This document shows, piece after piece, positions 342 through 12,537 of a DNA stretch of 15,313 nucleotides (its first letter is position 1; each line of letters opens with the position of its first letter). The translations under genes were made by a program, and so were the position numbers. The stretch is taken from positions 1 through 15,313 of the forward strand of contig CAYZVT010000072.1 of assembly GCA_964481585.1 (NCBI GenBank). Direction: 5' to 3'. This DNA is from an uncultured Pirellulales bacterium. GTDB lineage: Bacteria > Planctomycetota > Planctomycetia > Pirellulales > CAYZVT01. The notes under the pieces were generated by a model. It had not been told where the DNA came from. It made no database searches and worked only from the letters and a program-made list of their open reading frames with translations.

Positions 342-1067
342 TCAATCCTGCGCGGCTTGTTGGCGGAGAATCTGCCACTTCTGCGTTTGCCCGTTGCGGA
401 AGTGGAGCAGCACGGTGCCTTGCGGCTGGGTGAGGCTGCTCAAGGTGGTCTCAAAGATCACGCCGTCGCCGCTGCCGGCGGCCCAGGCGACGCGCTGCGA
501 CTGGGGATCGACTGAGCCGTAGATCGGCTGGCCGGCGTCGCTGAGCACGTCGTAGTAGGTGCCCTGCACCGCGCCGTCTTTGTGGATCGCAAGCTGGACC
601 ATGTGATTCGCCCGCTCCGAGTCGGGCGGCACCAGGGCAAACACTCCCAGCGGCAACCAATCTTCCGCTCGCGTCGAGTTCGGTTCCAAGTCCCCTTCGT
701 GCACCAAGTCGCCGGCCGATTCGACCTGCTCGGCATCGGACGGGGCAACCACGGCCGCCTCATAGACGGTGCTGTAGGAAGCCGTCGCCGGCGCGGCCGC
801 CAGCCCCAGCCATGCCGTCGCGCCGGCGAACGTCGCCACCGTCCACGCATCGGCGTGCGGATGCGTGTACCGCCAGGCTTGCGGATGATCGAGATACCAC
901 TGCGCGGTGAACGGCTGATTCTCCGGCGCGTACTGCTGGAGCCTCTCGTTCGCGCCGGCGCGCGCGTCGCCTCCGCGACGGGGACCGGCCTGACTGACGT
1001 TGGCGAACAGAGCAACAACGAGCGCCGCGCGCAGCGCGCAGCGGCAGAGGTTTCGCGTGGTACGCAT
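342..1067 (-). CDS. secreted hypothetical protein (about 241 aa)
   Basis: Long ORF on the minus strand. The first ATG in frame is at 1067; the ORF-track start at 1112 is a TTG. The N-terminus MRTTRNLCRCALRAALVVALFANVSQA is a classic signal peptide (basic n-region, hydrophobic core, AxA-like cleavage site). The mature part is W/Y-rich with no motif I recognise. Confidence 0.6.
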   Translation of the reverse strand: MRTTRNLCRCALRAALVVALFANVSQAGPRRGGDARAGANERLQQYAPENQPFTAQWYLDHPQAWRYTHPHADAWTVATFAGATAWLGLAAAPATASYSTVYEAAVVAPSDAEQVESAGDLVHEGDLEPNSTRAEDWLPLGVFALVPPDSERANHMVQLAIHKDGAVQGTYYDVLSDAGQPIYGSVDPQSQRVAWAAGSGDGVIFETTLSSLTQPQGTVLLHFRNGQTQKWQILRQQAAQD

Positions 1068-4790: not shown

Positions 4791-4820
4791 GGGTGCCACT
4801 CTCTGGCCTGTCCAGCAGTG
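4791..4820 (+). repeat. palindromic repeat module H1, forward orientation, degenerate copy (GGGTGCCACTCTCTGGCCTGTCCAGCAGTG)
   Basis: Read directly. Consensus is GGGTGCC ACTGCTGG CTTGT CCAGCAGTG. This copy has an extra base and 2-3 substitutions in the left arm. It starts 10 nt after the stop of the pyruvyl transferase gene. Confidence 0.8.
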
Positions 4821-4909
4821 CTTCCAAACGGGCGTGCGTAATTCTCTCTCGATTCTGTAGCAACGCGTTCCGGGGAAGCGAATCACTTGGAGGCGACGGC
4901 AAACGACGG

Positions 4910-4938
4910 CACTGCTGGACCAGCCAGCAGTGGCACCC
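4910..4938 (-). repeat. palindromic repeat module H1, reverse orientation (CACTGCTGGACCAGCCAGCAGTGGCACCC)
   Basis: Reverse complement of the consensus with one mismatch. A second GGCACCC follows at 4945-4951. It lies 30 nt from the nth stop. Confidence 0.85.
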
Positions 4939-5640: not shown

Positions 5641-5674
5641 GAGGTGTCTCGGAGTTAGTTGCTAAGTCGCGGGA

Positions 5675-5698
5675 CACTGCTGGCTTGGCCCAGCCGTG
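5675..5698 (-). repeat. degenerate solo copy of the H1 hairpin (CACTGCTGGCTTGGCCCAGCCGTG)
   Basis: Shares CACTGCTGGCTTG and a decayed right arm. It lies between the nth start and the end of the 87-aa membrane gene. Confidence 0.5.
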
Positions 5699-6264: not shown

Positions 6265-6293
6265 GGGTGCCACTGCTGGCTTGTCCAGCAGTG
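6265..6293 (+). repeat. palindromic repeat module H1, forward orientation (GGGTGCCACTGCTGGCTTGTCCAGCAGTG)
   Basis: Exact consensus copy. The 9-bp arms CACTGCTGG / CCAGCAGTG around a 5-nt centre form a perfect hairpin. Confidence 0.9.
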
Positions 6294-6374
6294 CCGTCAA
6301 CGAGCCTCACGGTGGCGCGTCTTGCCACGTCGTTCTCAGGCCAAGCAAATTGCCCCGGCATTGTCTGTCCGTCA

Positions 6375-6403
6375 CACTGCTGGACAAGCCAGCAGTGGCA
6401 CCC
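6375..6403 (-). repeat. palindromic repeat module H1, reverse orientation (CACTGCTGGACAAGCCAGCAGTGGCACCC)
   Basis: Exact reverse complement of 6265-6293, 81 nt away. Confidence 0.9.
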
Positions 6404-6432
6404 GGGGCACGGGCGAGACGCCCGTGGCACCC
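6404..6432 (-). repeat. palindromic repeat module H2, reverse orientation (GGGGCACGGGCGAGACGCCCGTGGCACCC)
   Basis: Hairpin CACGGGCG-AGA-CGCCCGTG followed by GGCACCC, immediately abutting the H1 copy. Its reverse complement occurs at 9738-9762. A third GGCACCC follows at 6447-6453. Confidence 0.8.
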
Positions 6433-8937: not shown

Positions 8938-9681
8938 ATGTCTTATATCCGGATCGGCACGTGCGGGTTTTGCACCCGTCAGGCCGAGTTCTTCCGCCGC
9001 TTTCGGCTCGTCGAAATCCAGCAGACGTTCTACCAACCGCCCCAGCTCAAGACCGTCGAGCGGTGGCGCGAGGCGGCGCCGGAGTCGTTTCGTTTTGCGC
9101 TGAAGGCGTGGCAAGCAATCACCCATCCCGGCGGCTGCCCGACTTTTCGCAAGTCGAAATTGAGCGAAGCCGAGCGCCGCGAGTGCGGCTCGTTTCGTGA
9201 CACGCCGGTCGTGCGTTCCGCTTGGGAGACAACGCGCGTGCTTGCCCGCGCGCTGCGGGCAGAGTGGGTGATTTTTCAGTGCCCGCCGACCTTTCGGCCG
9301 ACGAAGGAGAATCAAGCCAATCTGGAAGGCTTCTTGGGCTGGGCGGAGCGCGACCAGATGCGCTTCGGCTGGGAGCCGCGCCACCCGGACTGGAACGCGG
9401 AACTCGTGCGCGAGCTATGCGCGCGGCTGGAATTGATTCACGTCGTCGATCCGCTCTACGAAGATTCGGCGTGGGGCACGCCGCGCTACTACCGGCTGCA
9501 CGGCGAACCGCGCGGGACCTATCGCTGGGAGTACCGCTACCGCTACAGCGACGAGGAGCTGACGCGCGTCGCGGAAAAATGCCGCGAAGCGGAGACCTAC
9601 TGTCTGCTGAACAACGACCGCATGTGCGACGACGCCGCACGGCTGGCGGCGCTGCTGGGCCAAGAACTGAGCCAAACCTAA
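8938..9681 (+). CDS. DUF72 (UPF0759, YecE-like) family protein
   Basis: ATG at 8938 (MSYIRIGTCGFCTRQ...FY...LKTVERW...FRFALKAWQAITH). The IGTSGW/F start and the FY...F.FALK pattern match DUF72. The ORF-track start at 8863 is a TTG and adds a non-conserved extension. Stop TAA at 9679-9681. Confidence 0.75.
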   Translation: MSYIRIGTCGFCTRQAEFFRRFRLVEIQQTFYQPPQLKTVERWREAAPESFRFALKAWQAITHPGGCPTFRKSKLSEAERRECGSFRDTPVVRSAWETTRVLARALRAEWVIFQCPPTFRPTKENQANLEGFLGWAERDQMRFGWEPRHPDWNAELVRELCARLELIHVVDPLYEDSAWGTPRYYRLHGEPRGTYRWEYRYRYSDEELTRVAEKCREAETYCLLNNDRMCDDAARLAALLGQELSQT

Positions 9682-9685
9682 GCCT

Positions 9686-9708
9686 GGCCGGTGGGGGGCG
9701 GGGGCGCA
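9686..9708 (+). repeat. G-rich post-stop motif GGCCGGTGGGGGGCGGGGGCGCA (copy 1)
   Basis: It begins 5 nt after the DUF72 stop. A near-identical motif, GGCCGGGTGGCGGGGGCGCA, begins 24 nt after the stop of the last gene (15294-15313). Confidence 0.6.
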
Positions 9709-9737
9709 TCGCACAAGCGGAAGCCCCCGGAAACGCC

Positions 9738-9762
9738 GGGTGCCACGGGCGTCTCGCCCGTG
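9738..9762 (+). repeat. palindromic repeat module H2, forward orientation (GGGTGCCACGGGCGTCTCGCCCGTG)
   Basis: Reverse complement of 6404-6432 apart from the loop triplet (TCT versus AGA). The GGGTGCC flank is identical to the H1 flank. Confidence 0.8.
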
Positions 9763-9890
9763 CTGCGGAGCCAGCCGAGATTGCCACGGCACGACGGCCG
9801 ACACCTCGGCCACGGCTTGCTCCGCTCCGCGACGGCAAAGACTCCCGCTTCCTGGCAGGCTCGTGCTCGTGGTCGGTCGAGCCTACGCGC

Positions 9891-9919
9891 GGGTGCCACT
9901 GCTGGCTTGTCCAGCAGTG
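9891..9919 (+). repeat. palindromic repeat module H1, forward orientation (exact consensus)
   Basis: Identical 29-mer to 6265-6293. Confidence 0.9.
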
Positions 9920-10056
9920 CGCCTGGTGAGCATGCGCTAGCCGATCGGTTTTGCCCTGGAAAGAAGGGACGAGGAAGCTCGGCCCCGCAGGCCGATGTTT
10001 CCTCGGTTTCGCATTGCCGCAACAGAATCAAGCGGCAAATCAGGATCGGTGGAGGG

Positions 10057-10085
10057 CACTGCTGGACAAGCCAGCAGTGGCACCC
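10057..10085 (-). repeat. palindromic repeat module H1, reverse orientation (exact)
   Basis: Identical 29-mer to 6375-6403. It ends 4 nt before the kinase stop codon (10089-10091). Confidence 0.9.
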
Positions 10086-10088
10086 AAT

Positions 10089-11537
10089 TTAAGCCTGGGC
10101 GGTGGCGGTGAGCTTGGCGAGCGCTTCGCGCAGTTGCCGCAGCTTGATCGGCATGGTGGCGACCAAGCGGTGCCCGTTGCTCTGGGCGCTCGACTTCCAG
10201 TTGCGCTGGCGTTCGCTCAGCAGCAGCAGCGCGGGCACGTTTTTGAGATCGTTCCGCTGCCCAAAATCGTTGAAGGCCTCGACCGCGCTTTCGCCGAGCA
10301 TGCCGCTGCTAAAGAGCACCACGTCGGCCACTTGGCTATCGTCGGCAAAGCGCTGGGCGGCGCGCTGCGGATCGCTCGTGACGAGCACGCGATAGCCGCT
10401 CTTTTTGAGGCTGTCGCGAAAGAGGTTTTGCATCTTCACGTCGCCTTCGACGACCATCACCGTGCGCTGCTGGCTGTTGTCGCCCTTCAAGGCGCCTTCG
10501 CCCGCCTCTTCGGCGGCGCTTTCGCGCGCGAGCACGCCGCGCAGATCGGTCGCCAACTCGCCCGGCGTCTGATAGCGGCGGTCGGGATCGAAGCTGAGCG
10601 CCTTTTTGACGACCAGGGCAATCGAGTGCGGCAGATCCGGCTTGACCTGCAAGATCGGCGGGATTTCGCGGAAGCGGCTTTTGCGCAGCCGCTGCGAGCG
10701 CTCCCGCGTCTCGACCAACGGCGCTTGCCCGGTGAGCATGTGGTAGTAGATGCAGCCGGCGAAAAAGATGTCGCTACGGGCATCGCCTTTACGCACGCCG
10801 GTCGAGCGTTCCAGTCCGGCGTAGTCGATCGCGCGGGGGTTGTCGCTCTTTTGGATTACCTCGTCCGTCGCGTTCAGATCGGTGCCGGCCAAGCCGAAAT
10901 CGACCAGCTTCGCCTGCCCGAGGCTGGAAACGAGCACGTTCGACATTTTTAGGTCGCGGTGCGAGATGCCCCGGCCGAAAGCGTAGTCAAGTCCGCCGGC
11001 GATATCGAGCATCAGCCGCGTCGCTTCGAGTGGCTCGCAGCTTTTGCGGATGCGGACGAATTCGAGCAGATTGCGCCCCTCGACGAACTCCATGACCAGG
11101 TAATGGTTGTTCCCCTGCGAATCGACTTCGTAGATCGGGACGATGTTCGGATGCCGCAAGCCCTGGCACATCACCCCTTCGCGGTGGAAGCGGTCGGCTT
11201 CTTCTTTGAGTTCGCTGTAGCGTTTGCGAAGTACCTTGACGGCGACTTGTTTCTTGCCGAGCCGGTCGGTGGCCCGGTAGACGCGCGCAAAGGTGCCGGT
11301 GCCCACGAGATAGAGAACTTTGTAGTCCCCGTAGTAGAACGTGGTGCGGTCGCGGGCAATCAGATGCTCGATCTGGTAGAAGGTGAGCAAGTCGCGGCGG
11401 AGGAGCAACTGGCGGAACTCGTCCAGGCTGACGTTCTGGCTGCCGAACTCGCCCCAGATCTCGCGGAGCTGCGTCTCGTCGAGCAGATTCAGGTTCAGCG
11501 CATGCTGAGCCAGTTCCTCTGCTGACGTAATGGCCAT
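10089..11537 (-). CDS. Ser/Thr protein kinase (Hanks type) fused to a C-terminal receiver-like (pseudo-REC) domain
   Basis: ATG at 11537 (MAITSAEEL...) is preceded by AGGGAG 4 nt upstream; an alternative ATG lies at 11558. Kinase motifs are present: VGTGTFARV (G-loop), VAVK, HRDLKMSNVLV, DFGLA, SDIFFAGCIYYHMLTG, DPDRRYQT. The C-terminal 120 aa (TVMVVEGDVKMQNLF...YRVLVTSD...ADVVLFSSGMLGE...VPALLLLSERQ...MPIKL) has the REC topology, with the conserved T/S and K present. The phospho-acceptor Asp is replaced by Ser (VLFSSGM where VLLDxxMP is expected). Confidence 0.85.
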   Translation of the reverse strand: MAITSAEELAQHALNLNLLDETQLREIWGEFGSQNVSLDEFRQLLLRRDLLTFYQIEHLIARDRTTFYYGDYKVLYLVGTGTFARVYRATDRLGKKQVAVKVLRKRYSELKEEADRFHREGVMCQGLRHPNIVPIYEVDSQGNNHYLVMEFVEGRNLLEFVRIRKSCEPLEATRLMLDIAGGLDYAFGRGISHRDLKMSNVLVSSLGQAKLVDFGLAGTDLNATDEVIQKSDNPRAIDYAGLERSTGVRKGDARSDIFFAGCIYYHMLTGQAPLVETRERSQRLRKSRFREIPPILQVKPDLPHSIALVVKKALSFDPDRRYQTPGELATDLRGVLARESAAEEAGEGALKGDNSQQRTVMVVEGDVKMQNLFRDSLKKSGYRVLVTSDPQRAAQRFADDSQVADVVLFSSGMLGESAVEAFNDFGQRNDLKNVPALLLLSERQRNWKSSAQSNGHRLVATMPIKLRQLREALAKLTATAQA

Positions 11538-12470: not shown

Positions 12471-12537
12471 ATAGCCGGCGAGCAACGCTTGCCGGTGCGC
12501 GGCGGTGTTGAACCGGCGAGCGTTGCTCGCCGGCTAT
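12471..12537 (+). promoter_or_regulatory. 19-bp perfect inverted repeat (ATAGCCGGCGAGCAACGCT ... AGCGTTGCTCGCCGGCTAT) with a 29-nt spacer; leader hairpin or operator upstream of the large secreted-protein gene
   Basis: Read directly. The spacer contains a further GCCGGT/ACCGGC pairing. It ends 19 nt before the AGGGAG ribosome-binding site at 12556 and overlaps the alternative GTG/TTG start candidates at 12505-12525. Confidence 0.5.

What the first reader, a model, noticed from the sequence alone, without database searches (positions are those of the whole stretch)
9679..10108. Composite element at the DUF72/kinase junction is bracketed by a 19-bp direct repeat that contains both genes' stop codons
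TAAGCCTGGCCGGTGGGGG (9679-9697) and TAAGCCTGGGCGGTGGCGG (10090-10108) match at 17 of 19 positions and flank the entire 408-bp repeat-bearing spacer. The left copy supplies the TAA stop of the DUF72 gene. The right copy holds the kinase stop (TTA on the plus strand at 10089-10091) and encodes its last residues. This is the expected footprint of an insertion with target-site duplication into a junction where the two convergent genes originally shared overlapping stops (TTAA). A 19-bp duplication is long for a transposon. A site-specific or homologous capture event, or terminal direct repeats that belong to the element, are alternatives.
Basis: partly seen in the sequence, partly recalled or inferred. 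Interest (0 to 1): 0.7.

Follow-up and report, generated by a model that had tools for sequence, protein, structure and literature searches.

The report
Decayed target duplication around palindromic repeats
The 19-base repeat is real and is most likely the worn footprint of palindromic repeat DNA (typical of planctomycete bacteria) being inserted between two genes that once abutted tail to tail, with the kinase gene's tail copied so that both genes stayed intact.

Summary
It brackets a 392-nt insert between the DUF72 stop and the kinase stop.

A 17/19 match alone is weak. Five unrelated pairs in the window are as good. The position and outside analogues make the case.

- The right copy is native kinase sequence (tail KLTATAQA*).
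- The 19-mer occurs nowhere else, so it is not an element end.
- The spacer is not one mobile composite. Only three roughly 30-nt palindromic units recur, all with the head GGGTGCCAC. The rest is unique.
- The main unit occurs as an exact 29-mer across Planctomycetota.
- Of 243 such clusters elsewhere, five are flanked by locus-specific direct repeats of 19-79 nt. Mismatched-flank controls never exceed 16/19 within 100 nt. Three of the five duplicate a tight gene junction so that both genes survive.

No empty site exists. The nearest relatives (about 70% protein identity) lack the DUF72-kinase adjacency, and the ancestral neighbour of the kinase is RpiB.

Verdict: probably a decayed insertion-coupled long target duplication (about 0.65), with chance at about 0.2. 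[quoted passage not shown] Moderate interest.

The parts
9679..9697 (+). Left copy of the 19-nt direct repeat. It is a non-coding relic whose first three bases serve as the DUF72 stop TAA.
   Evidence: It has two mismatches to the right copy. Read on the minus strand it would give ...PTGQA* in the kinase register.
10090..10108 (+). Right copy of the direct repeat. On the minus strand it encodes the last six kinase codons (TATAQA) and holds two bases of the stop.
   Evidence: The tail is homologous to KLTTTAETK* in L001 and KLTAAEAGSSS* in L004. Nucleotide homology to the L004 kinase starts inside this copy.
9698..10089 (.). The 392-nt block between the two copies. It is a mosaic of hairpins, BIME-like, holding three recognisable REP units among otherwise unique DNA.
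   Evidence: Only 9735-9765, 9890-9925 and 10050-10087 match other loci. The region folds at -252.9 kcal/mol against -201.6 for shuffles, z = -8.5. The ORFs across it have flat GC by codon position. There is no Rfam family above noise and no pseudogene relic.
9738..9762 (+). REP unit type B, GGGTGCCACGGGCGTCTCGCCCGTG. It has the same head as REP-A and a different stem.
   Evidence: The second copy is at 6408-6432 on the minus strand. About 26 short matches occur in loci from other genomes.
9891..9920 (+). REP-A unit, GGGTGCCACTGCTGGCTTGTCCAGCAGTGC. This is the left arm of the doublet.
   Evidence: It is identical to 6265-6294. The exact 29-mer is found in more than 118 genome and more than 120 metagenome stretches.
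10056..10085 (-). REP-A unit, right arm of the doublet. It is 100% complementary to 9891-9920, with 135 nt between the arms. Its head ends 3 nt from the kinase stop.
   Evidence: (I1).
8938..9681 (+). DUF72 (YecE-like) gene, 247 aa.
   Evidence: Pfam PF01904, E = 1.9e-39. The database protein P0121 is 100% identical and 247 aa. GC3 is 0.80.
10089..11537 (-). Ser/Thr protein kinase gene, 482 aa.
   Evidence: Pfam Pkinase, E = 2.5e-41. P0001 is 100% identical and 482 aa. GC3 is 0.82.
4792..4938 (.). Another REP-A doublet in the window (arms 4792-4821 and 4909-4938). It lies between the convergent PS_pyruv_trans and EndoIII genes and has no flanking direct repeat.
6265..6432 (.). Another REP-A doublet (arms 6265-6294 and 6375-6403) followed directly by a B unit (6408-6432, minus strand). 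It has no flanking direct repeat.

Best explanation
The two 19-mers are most likely the decayed remains of a long target duplication. It was made when REP-type palindromic DNA was inserted at the very end of the kinase gene, at a junction where the DUF72 and kinase genes met stop to stop.

Before the event there was one copy: ...CAAACC-TAAGCCTGGGCGGTGGCGG-TGAGC... DUF72 ended at TAA. The kinase ended on the other strand at the overlapping CTA or TTA.

The insertion duplicated 19 nt. The right copy kept the last six kinase codons in service. The left copy kept only the DUF72 stop and has since drifted at two positions.

The inserted DNA belongs to a REP superfamily found across Planctomycetota, with the head GGGTGCCAC followed by a 9-bp stem. 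The present 392-nt block is a mosaic that probably grew by later additions (the B unit and unique hairpins).

What is shown:
- The repeat and its placement.
- The native status of the right copy.
- That the 19-mer is not part of the repeat family.
- That the same kind of footprint recurs elsewhere.

What is inferred:
- The ancestral single-copy junction.
- That insertion and duplication were a single event.
- The enzymology, which is unknown. Candidates are fill-in of widely staggered nicks with capture of a hairpin element, or a replicative template switch that re-enters upstream.

The likely present role of the mosaic is a two-way RNA hairpin, terminator or stabiliser between convergent genes. 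That too is inference only.
For: Placement:
- The right copy abuts the kinase stop and the left copy starts at the DUF72 stop.
- The empirical chance rate for a match of at least 17/19 is about 4.5e-8 per position pair.
- That gives roughly 7e-5 for a repeat with its right copy within 3 nt of the kinase stop.

Native right copy: the kinase tails of the two closest orthologues are homologous.

Not element sequence: the 19-mer is absent from all other REP loci.

Enrichment of long flanking repeats around REP-A clusters, using 100-nt flanks:
- Genome set: 3 at 19/19, 1 at 17 and 2 at 16, out of 131 clusters. The maximum in 513 mismatched-flank controls is 14.
- Independent metagenome set: 3 at 19/19 and 1 at 17, out of 112 clusters. 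The control maximum in 442 is 16.

Inspected analogues whose repeats are unique to their locus:
- L032: 23/24. The last codons and stop of a purQ-like gene are duplicated, and the convergent SpoVG stop lies 2 nt beyond.
- L059: 79/79. The dnaX stop and ybaB start (GTGA overlap) are duplicated. The insert is a roughly 125-nt element with other copies in the same MAG.
- L243: 17/19. A junction of stop, 3 nt, then start is duplicated.
- L133: 19/19.
- L215: 71/78.
- L087, identical to L247, carries another palindrome type: 34/35.

That is 5 of 243 clusters, about 2%. The base-rate odds therefore favour a real duplication over chance.

Against: - No empty site is available. The nearest relatives share only about 70% protein identity and lack the DUF72-kinase adjacency. 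RpiB-Sua5 is the ancestral neighbour of the kinase. A stop-to-stop DUF72-kinase junction must therefore have arisen by rearrangement first.
- The match is only 17/19 in GC-rich sequence. Five unrelated pairs in the window are as good. It does not extend beyond 19 nt.
- The block between the copies is 392 nt with the left copy 193 nt from the nearest REP-A arm. The clear analogues have 48-121 nt.
- About 98% of REP-A clusters, including the two other doublets in this window, show no flanking repeat.
- Other copies of the L059-type element lack long repeats.
Confidence: 0.65

Rival explanations
1. Chance resemblance. The sequence just after the DUF72 stop happens to resemble the GC-rich last codons of the kinase, and the two copies have independent origins.
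For: - Simulations give 0.23 such pairs within 600 nt per window.
- Five other unrelated pairs of at least 17/19 exist in the same 15 kb, two of them 18/19.
- There is no extension beyond 19 nt.
- The left copy sits in a G-run of low complexity.
- The adjacency of the two genes is evolutionarily derived, so the two flanks may come from different ancestral places.
Against: - The placement is very specific. Both copies start at the two stop codons.
- The gene-end comparison gives P of 0.0025-0.005.
- A chance repeat in this configuration is expected about 7e-5 times per REP cluster. Genuine long flanking duplications are seen in about 2%.
Confidence: 0.2
2. Two steps. A short tandem duplication of the junction arose first by slippage. 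This created dispensable DNA between the two genes, which REP units and other DNA later colonised.
For: - In L059, removing the element plus one GACGAG leaves a perfect 76-nt tandem duplication bounded by a GTC microhomology.
- The window's block is a mosaic that looks as if it accumulated over time.
Against: - In L032, L133, L215 and L243 the inserted DNA sits exactly at the boundary between the two copies. No partial second copy lies on the left. That is unlikely if insertion had occurred at a random point in a pre-existing duplication.
- No uninterrupted tandem junction duplication was seen in the 1.5 Mb of loci scanned.
Confidence: 0.08
3. The 19-mers are a recombination scar rather than a product of REP insertion. 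They would be an att-like core left by a site-specific integration at the kinase 3' end whose cargo was later lost, or a microhomology used in the rearrangement that brought DUF72 next to the kinase.
For: - The spacer coincides with a synteny breakpoint relative to every kinase orthologue locus examined.
- Integrative elements typically duplicate gene 3' ends (established knowledge; also discussed in PMC2853133).
Against: - None of the window ORFs scanned has an integrase or transposase domain, though not every ORF was scanned.
- The block contains only REP units and unique non-coding DNA.
- The analogues at other loci have nothing but the palindromic element between the copies.
Confidence: 0.05
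4. The 19-mers are terminal direct repeats that belong to the mobile composite itself.
For: None beyond their position at the ends of the block.
Against: - The 19-mer is found nowhere else in the window with up to 3 mismatches.
- It is not found next to any of about 276 REP-A clusters in 249 loci.
- The REP-A unit has sharp boundaries with no conserved flank.
- The right copy is kinase coding sequence.
Confidence: 0.01

Closest known systems
[quoted passage not shown] 2000, cited from my own knowledge; Furuta, Abe and Kobayashi 2010, PMC2853133)
   Same: - The inserted DNA is flanked by locus-specific direct repeats far longer than ordinary transposon duplications (26 to over 100 bp there, 19-79 bp here).
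- The length varies from case to case.
- There is no mobility gene in the insert.
- The repeats often overlap the 3' end of a neighbouring gene. One example is a 46-bp repeat overlapping 15 bp of HI0105.
   Different: - There the cargo is kilobases of restriction-modification genes, and each case was proven by comparing empty and filled sites.
- Here the cargo is a 50-400 nt palindromic repeat element and no empty site is available.
- The window's repeat (19 nt) is below their 30-bp cut-off.
REP / BIME / REPIN elements mobilised by RAYT (IS200/IS605-like Y1) transposases
   Same: - A palindromic unit of about 30 nt with a conserved head and a GC-rich stem.
- Hundreds of extragenic copies.
- Inverted doublets that form long hairpins.
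- Clustering into mosaics at gene 3' ends and between convergent genes (background in PMC3733652 and PMC3184786).
   Different: - The head is GGGTGCCAC, not GTAG or CGTC.
- The exact 29-mer is shared across several planctomycete families, whereas REPs are usually lineage-specific.
- The doublet spacers in this window are unrelated to one another.
- Y1 transposition makes no target duplication, whereas a subset here carries 19-79 nt duplications.
- No RAYT gene was looked for.
MITEs, and IS elements with unusually long target duplications (IS1630, 19-26 bp)
   Same: - Terminal inverted repeats: 30-nt perfect arms here, and roughly 17-nt outer inverted repeats in the L059 family.
- Small size and no ORF.
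- Flanking direct repeats of target origin. The IS1630 range includes 19 bp.
   Different: - MITE duplications are short and of fixed length for a given transposase.
- Here most copies have none detectable, and those present range from 19 to 79 nt.
- The window's block is not a repeated unit as a whole.
Site-specific integration into gene 3' ends (attL/attR core duplication)
   Same: A direct repeat that includes the 3' end of a gene and restores it after insertion.
   Different: - No integrase is present.
- Many different targets (purQ end, dnaX-ybaB junction, kinase end) are associated with the same repeat family.
- The insert is tiny.

Membership tests
REP/REPIN-RAYT | Short GC-rich palindromic unit present in many extragenic copies | tested here: met
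   There are five exact hairpin-motif matches in the window where 0.01 are expected. The exact 29-mer occurs in more than 118 genome and more than 120 metagenome stretches. The unit boundaries are sharp.
REP/REPIN-RAYT | Two units in inverted orientation that form a hairpin and replicate together as one unit with a conserved spacer | tested here: inconclusive
   Inverted '+-' doublets make up 136 of 276 clusters, and '-+' never occurs. Conserved spacers exist in some genomes: L215/L220 at 99% and the L059 family. The three doublets in this window have unrelated spacers of 81-135 nt.
REP/REPIN-RAYT | GTAG or CGTC tetranucleotide head | tested here: not met
   The head is GGGTGCCAC. The GTAG/CGTC definition is from PMC3733652.
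REP/REPIN-RAYT | A cognate single-copy RAYT (Y1 HUH) gene flanked by the repeats | not tested
   The window's annotated ORFs include none. The rest of the genome could not be reached, and the 249 loci were not scanned for Y1 transposases.
REP/REPIN-RAYT | Insertion without target duplication | tested here: inconclusive
   About 98% of clusters have no detectable flanking repeat. About 2%, and the window, have 19-79 nt repeats.
MITE | Terminal inverted repeats bounding a short non-coding element | tested here: met
   The arms 9891-9920 and 10056-10085 are 30-nt perfect inverted repeats. There is no coding signal.
MITE | Short target duplication of fixed length that differs in sequence between copies | tested here: not met
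   There is no excess of short flanking repeats over controls. The repeats that exist range from 19 to 79 nt.
MITE | The whole element is present in multiple copies | tested here: not met
   Only the REP units of the 392-nt block recur. The feature is met for the L059 and L215 elements in other genomes.
[quoted passage not shown] | Flanking direct repeats that are unique target sequence, not part of the insert | tested here: met
   The 19-mer occurs only at these two sites in the window and is absent from 1.5 Mb of REP-bearing loci. The right copy is kinase coding sequence.
[quoted passage not shown] | A related genome shows the empty site with one copy of the repeat | not testable with these tools
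   There is no relative closer than 72% (kinase) or 70% (DUF72) protein identity among 5.8 billion proteins. Those relatives lack the adjacency.
[quoted passage not shown] | Repeat longer than ordinary transposon duplications, with length varying between events | tested here: met
   The lengths are 19, 19, 19, 24, 35, 78 and 79 nt across the window and six analogues.
[quoted passage not shown] | No transposase or integrase within the insert | tested here: met
   The 392 nt are non-coding. The analogue inserts are 48-121 nt.
Site-specific integration (att core) | An integrase or recombinase gene in or beside the insert | tested here: not met
   The Pfam scans of 16 of the larger window ORFs show none. 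Not every ORF was scanned.

The most novel reading that the evidence does not exclude
REP-type palindromic elements of Planctomycetota would be inserted, at least sometimes, by a process that copies 19-79 nt of the target on both sides. That would let them split overlapping or abutting gene junctions (stop/stop, or stop/start such as dnaX-ybaB GTGA) without harming either gene. It would tie REP spread to the mechanistically unexplained 'insertion with long target duplication'. It would also give that mechanism a small, abundant and experimentally tractable substrate.
Probability: 0.35. Interest if true: 0.7.

Novelty: new variant of a known kind. Interest (0 to 1): 0.45.

Why it matters
If the reading is right, this junction is one instance of a recurring way in which compact bacterial gene junctions acquire intergenic DNA. 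A palindromic element arrives together with a duplication of the gene ends. Two genes that shared or abutted their stops become separated by a structured spacer without loss of function.

It would also extend the poorly understood "insertion with long target duplication" from restriction-modification cassettes to very small repeat elements that occur in hundreds of copies per genome. That makes the mechanism easier to study.

For annotation, it warns that short repeats of gene tails next to REP clusters are relics, not coding sequence. If it is only chance, the locus is an ordinary REP mosaic between convergent genes.

Tried and rejected
- **Empty-site search through orthologues.** The kinase homologues and their contigs, and the DUF72 homologues and their contigs, contain no DUF72-kinase junction anywhere. 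The test could not be done. An exact look-up of the window's own kinase found no record.
- **Terminal-repeat idea.** Rejected.
- **Single mobile composite.** Rejected, because only the REP units recur.
- **Pseudogene relics in the spacer.** A relaxed tblastn for RpiB, the response regulator, Sua5 or the 351-aa DUF72 neighbour gave only noise.
- **Known RNA families.** Only sub-threshold miRNA-like hairpin hits. There is no sigma-70 promoter, and terminator-like hits are no more than in shuffles.
- **Extension of the repeat with gaps.** None.
- **Flanking repeats at the two other doublets in the window.** None.
- **Empty-site test for the L059 analogue.** It failed because I queried a wrong-frame ORF. 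The real gene is ybaB on the other strand.
- **High-scoring flanking repeats that were really other repeat families or coding coincidences.** L037, L063, L084, L104, L066, L220, L141, L176 and L069. These were excluded from the analogue count.
- **Literature.** I found no report of long target duplications around REPs or REPINs.
Full report
**Observation**

- The left copy begins with the TAA stop of a DUF72 gene (8938-9681; Pfam E = 1.9e-39).
- The right copy begins one base inside the stop of a convergent Ser/Thr kinase gene (10089-11537, minus strand). It encodes the last six residues of that kinase.
- The repeat finder stretches the match to 26 nt at 81%. A gapped local alignment stops at 19 nt.

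**Is it more than chance?**

On the match alone, no.
- First-order simulations give 0.23 such pairs within 600 nt per window.
- The real window holds five other unrelated pairs of at least 17/19.

On placement, the two gene ends compared as 120-nt stretches reach this score in 0.25-0.5% of controls. The decision therefore rests on independent evidence.

**What lies between the copies**

The 392 nt are not one element. BLAST against 129 loci from related and REP-bearing genomes shows that only three short stretches recur:
- Two copies of a 30-nt palindromic unit that I call REP-A, GGGTGCCACTGCTGGCTTGTCCAGCAGTGC. They lie at 9891-9920 on the plus strand and 10056-10085 on the minus strand. They are perfectly complementary, with 135 nt between them.
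- One unit with the same head and another stem, type B, at 9738-9762.

The rest is unique, non-coding (flat GC by codon position) and strongly structured (z = -8.5). It matches no Rfam family above noise and holds no relic of the genes that flank the kinase or DUF72 in relatives.

The window has two more REP-A doublets (4792-4938 and 6265-6403), a second B unit (6408-6432) and a degenerate single unit near 5663-5690. Their internal spacers are unrelated to each other. Neither of the other doublets has a flanking repeat. The region is a BIME-like mosaic.

**The repeat family**

- The exact 29-mer of REP-A was found in more than 118 stretches of species-representative genomes and more than 120 metagenome stretches.
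- The sources include Pirellulales, Planctomycetaceae, Thermoguttaceae, Lacipirellulaceae and the cultured Maioricimonas sp. JC845.
- The unit has sharp boundaries and no conserved flank.
- Of 276 clusters, 136 are inverted '+-' doublets and none is '-+'. The preferred arm spacings are 7 and 20-23 nt.
- The 19-mer of the finding is next to none of them. This rejects the terminal-repeat alternative.

**Comparative test of the junction**

- The closest kinase homologue among 5.8 billion proteins is 72% identical, and the closest DUF72 is 70% identical. No close relative exists in the collections.
- In the closest relative, the kinase is followed by a convergent response-regulator gene, then RpiB and Sua5.
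- In two deeper lineages, RpiB directly abuts the kinase or overlaps it by 12 nt.
- In the same sample as the closest relative, the DUF72 orthologue is followed by a 351-aa gene. The window's homologue of that gene lies 8 kb away, at 363-962.
- The upstream side of the kinase (a 94-aa and a 921-aa gene) is conserved.

The DUF72-kinase adjacency is therefore derived, and the spacer sits at a synteny breakpoint. No empty site can be shown.

What can be shown is that the right copy is native. The kinase tail KLTATAQA* aligns with KLTTTAETK* and KLTAAEAGSSS* in the two nearest orthologues. Nucleotide homology to the L004 kinase starts inside the right copy.

**The unexpected support**

I asked whether REP-A clusters elsewhere carry flanking direct repeats. 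For each cluster I compared its left and right flanks, and used flanks paired from different loci as controls. With 100-nt flanks:

| Set | Clusters | Best flanking 19-mer matches observed | Controls | Control maximum |
|---|---|---|---|---|
| Genomes | 131 | 3 at 19/19, 1 at 17, 2 at 16 | 513 | 14 |
| Metagenomes (independent) | 112 | 3 at 19/19, 1 at 17 | 442 | 16 |

On inspection, several of these are other repeat families and were set aside: L037, L063, L084, L104, L066, L220, L141 and L176. Five REP-A cases are locus-specific duplications:

| Locus | Repeat (matches/length) | DNA between copies | What is duplicated |
|---|---|---|---|
| L032 | 23/24 | 102 nt | The last seven codons and stop of a purQ-like gene. 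The relic copy abuts the doublet, and the stop of convergent spoVG lies 2 nt beyond. |
| L059 | 79/79 | 114 nt | The dnaX-stop/ybaB-start GTGA junction. The left copy ends dnaX and the right copy starts ybaB. The insert is a roughly 125-nt element with other copies in the same MAG. |
| L243 | 17/19 | 121 nt | A junction of stop, 3 nt, then start. Same logic as L059. |
| L133 | 19/19 | 48 nt | Sequence around a single unit. |
| L215 | 71/78 | 98 nt | Sequence upstream of a gene. |

A sixth case, L087 (identical in the independent contig L247), shows a 34/35 repeat around other palindromes inside a gene's 5' end. L051 is a weaker decayed candidate.

About 2% of clusters therefore carry a long, variable target-derived duplication. 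Where the target was a tight gene junction, the duplication leaves both genes whole.

**Weighing the window's case**

- The empirical chance rate is about 4.5e-8 per position pair.
- A chance repeat of at least 17/19, with its right copy within 3 nt of the kinase stop and its left copy anywhere in the spacer, is expected about 7e-5 times per cluster.
- Genuine duplications occur about 2e-2 times per cluster.

Against this:
- The window's block is 392 nt and the left copy is 193 nt from the nearest REP-A arm, larger than any clear analogue.
- A stop-to-stop DUF72-kinase junction must first have been produced by rearrangement.
- The identity is low.

I put the insertion-coupled duplication at about 0.65, chance at about 0.2, and the remainder on the two-step and recombination-scar scenarios.

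**One step or two?**

In L059, removing the element and one GACGAG leaves a perfect 76-nt tandem duplication bounded by GTC. A prior slippage duplication followed by insertion is possible there. In L032, L133, L215 and L243 the insert sits exactly at the boundary between the copies. That favours a single event.

The enzymology is unknown. Y1 (RAYT) transposition makes no duplication. Fixed-stagger DDE transposases make constant lengths. The spread from 19 to 79 nt fits repair-type processes better, such as fill-in of distant staggered nicks with capture of hairpin DNA, or a template switch that re-enters upstream. This is inference.

**Comparison with what is known**

[quoted passage not shown] There, repeats of 26 to over 100 bp, sometimes overlapping gene 3' ends, flank inserts without mobility genes (PMC2853133). 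The same paper notes the 19-26 bp duplications of IS1630.
- The elements themselves work like REP/BIME/REPIN sequences (PMC3733652, PMC3184786). They lack the GTAG or CGTC head, and no RAYT was examined.
- I found no report linking REP-type elements to long target duplications. That search covers open-access text only.

**Verdict**

The "composite element" is a mosaic rather than a unit, and the terminal-repeat alternative is rejected. The finding is of moderate interest. Most of that interest lies in the recurring pattern it led to.

Noticed in passing
window 4792-4938, 6265-6432, 9738-10085; loci L012-L249: The exact 29-mer GGGTGCCACTGCTGGCTTGTCCAGCAGTG is shared by genomes of several planctomycete families and a cultured Maioricimonas. 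Doublets are always '+-' and never '-+', with preferred arm spacings of 7 and 20-23 nt. Such cross-family identity is unusual for REP sequences. It suggests strong constraint or horizontal spread.
   Followed up: partly
window 10089 (kinase 3' end) compared with L001, L004, L009, L010, L011: The gene downstream of this kinase differs between lineages: a response regulator in L001, an unrelated co-directional gene in L004 and another in L011, and DUF72 here. In L009 and L010 it is RpiB-Sua5, the likely ancestral state. The upstream 94-aa and 921-aa genes are conserved in L001, L002, L009 and L010. The kinase 3' end is a recurrent rearrangement breakpoint.
   Followed up: partly
window 12471-12496 / 12512-12537: A 26-nt inverted repeat, 96% complementary, is centred on the GTG start (12505) of the 921-aa gene. 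It gives weak miRNA-like Rfam hits. It may be an operator or an RNA hairpin.
   Followed up: no
L087 3367-3542 (identical in L247): A 106-nt block of other palindromic repeats, with a 35-nt duplication and 141-nt copy spacing (a multiple of 3), lies inside the N-terminal GFTLIEV prepilin-like motif of a minus-strand gene. A second palindromic doublet lies between the start codon and the motif.
   Followed up: partly
L059 2770-2889; L028, L040, L072, L199: A roughly 125-nt MITE-like family has outer inverted repeats CTAGTAGTCCGACAC...GTGTCGGACTACTAG. These enclose a REP-A unit and a variant unit (CACGGTTGGGCAAGCCAACCGTG). Several copies occur in one MAG, and only the L059 copy has a long flanking duplication.
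   Followed up: partly
L014, L064, L074, L020, L025, L036, L061 (record titles): Contigs labelled Enterobacteriaceae, Klebsiella pneumoniae, Thermodesulfobacteriota or delta proteobacterium MAGs carry the planctomycete REP-A 29-mer. They are probably mis-binned or contaminated assemblies.
   Followed up: no
L066 6230-7450; L063 2445-3300: Long tandem arrays, with units of about 209-275 nt in L066 and a 602-nt duplicated unit in Maioricimonas L063, lie next to REP-A units.
   Followed up: no
L004 1875-2234: The 360-nt spacer after the kinase orthologue contains a promoter-like TTGCAA-17-TATACT followed by GC-rich structured sequence. It may be a small RNA gene.
   Followed up: no
window 363-962 (minus strand): This is a homologue (67% identity over 201 aa) of the 351-aa gene that sits convergent to DUF72 in the closest relative. 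Here it lies 8 kb from DUF72, showing the two genes have been separated in one of the lineages.
   Followed up: partly
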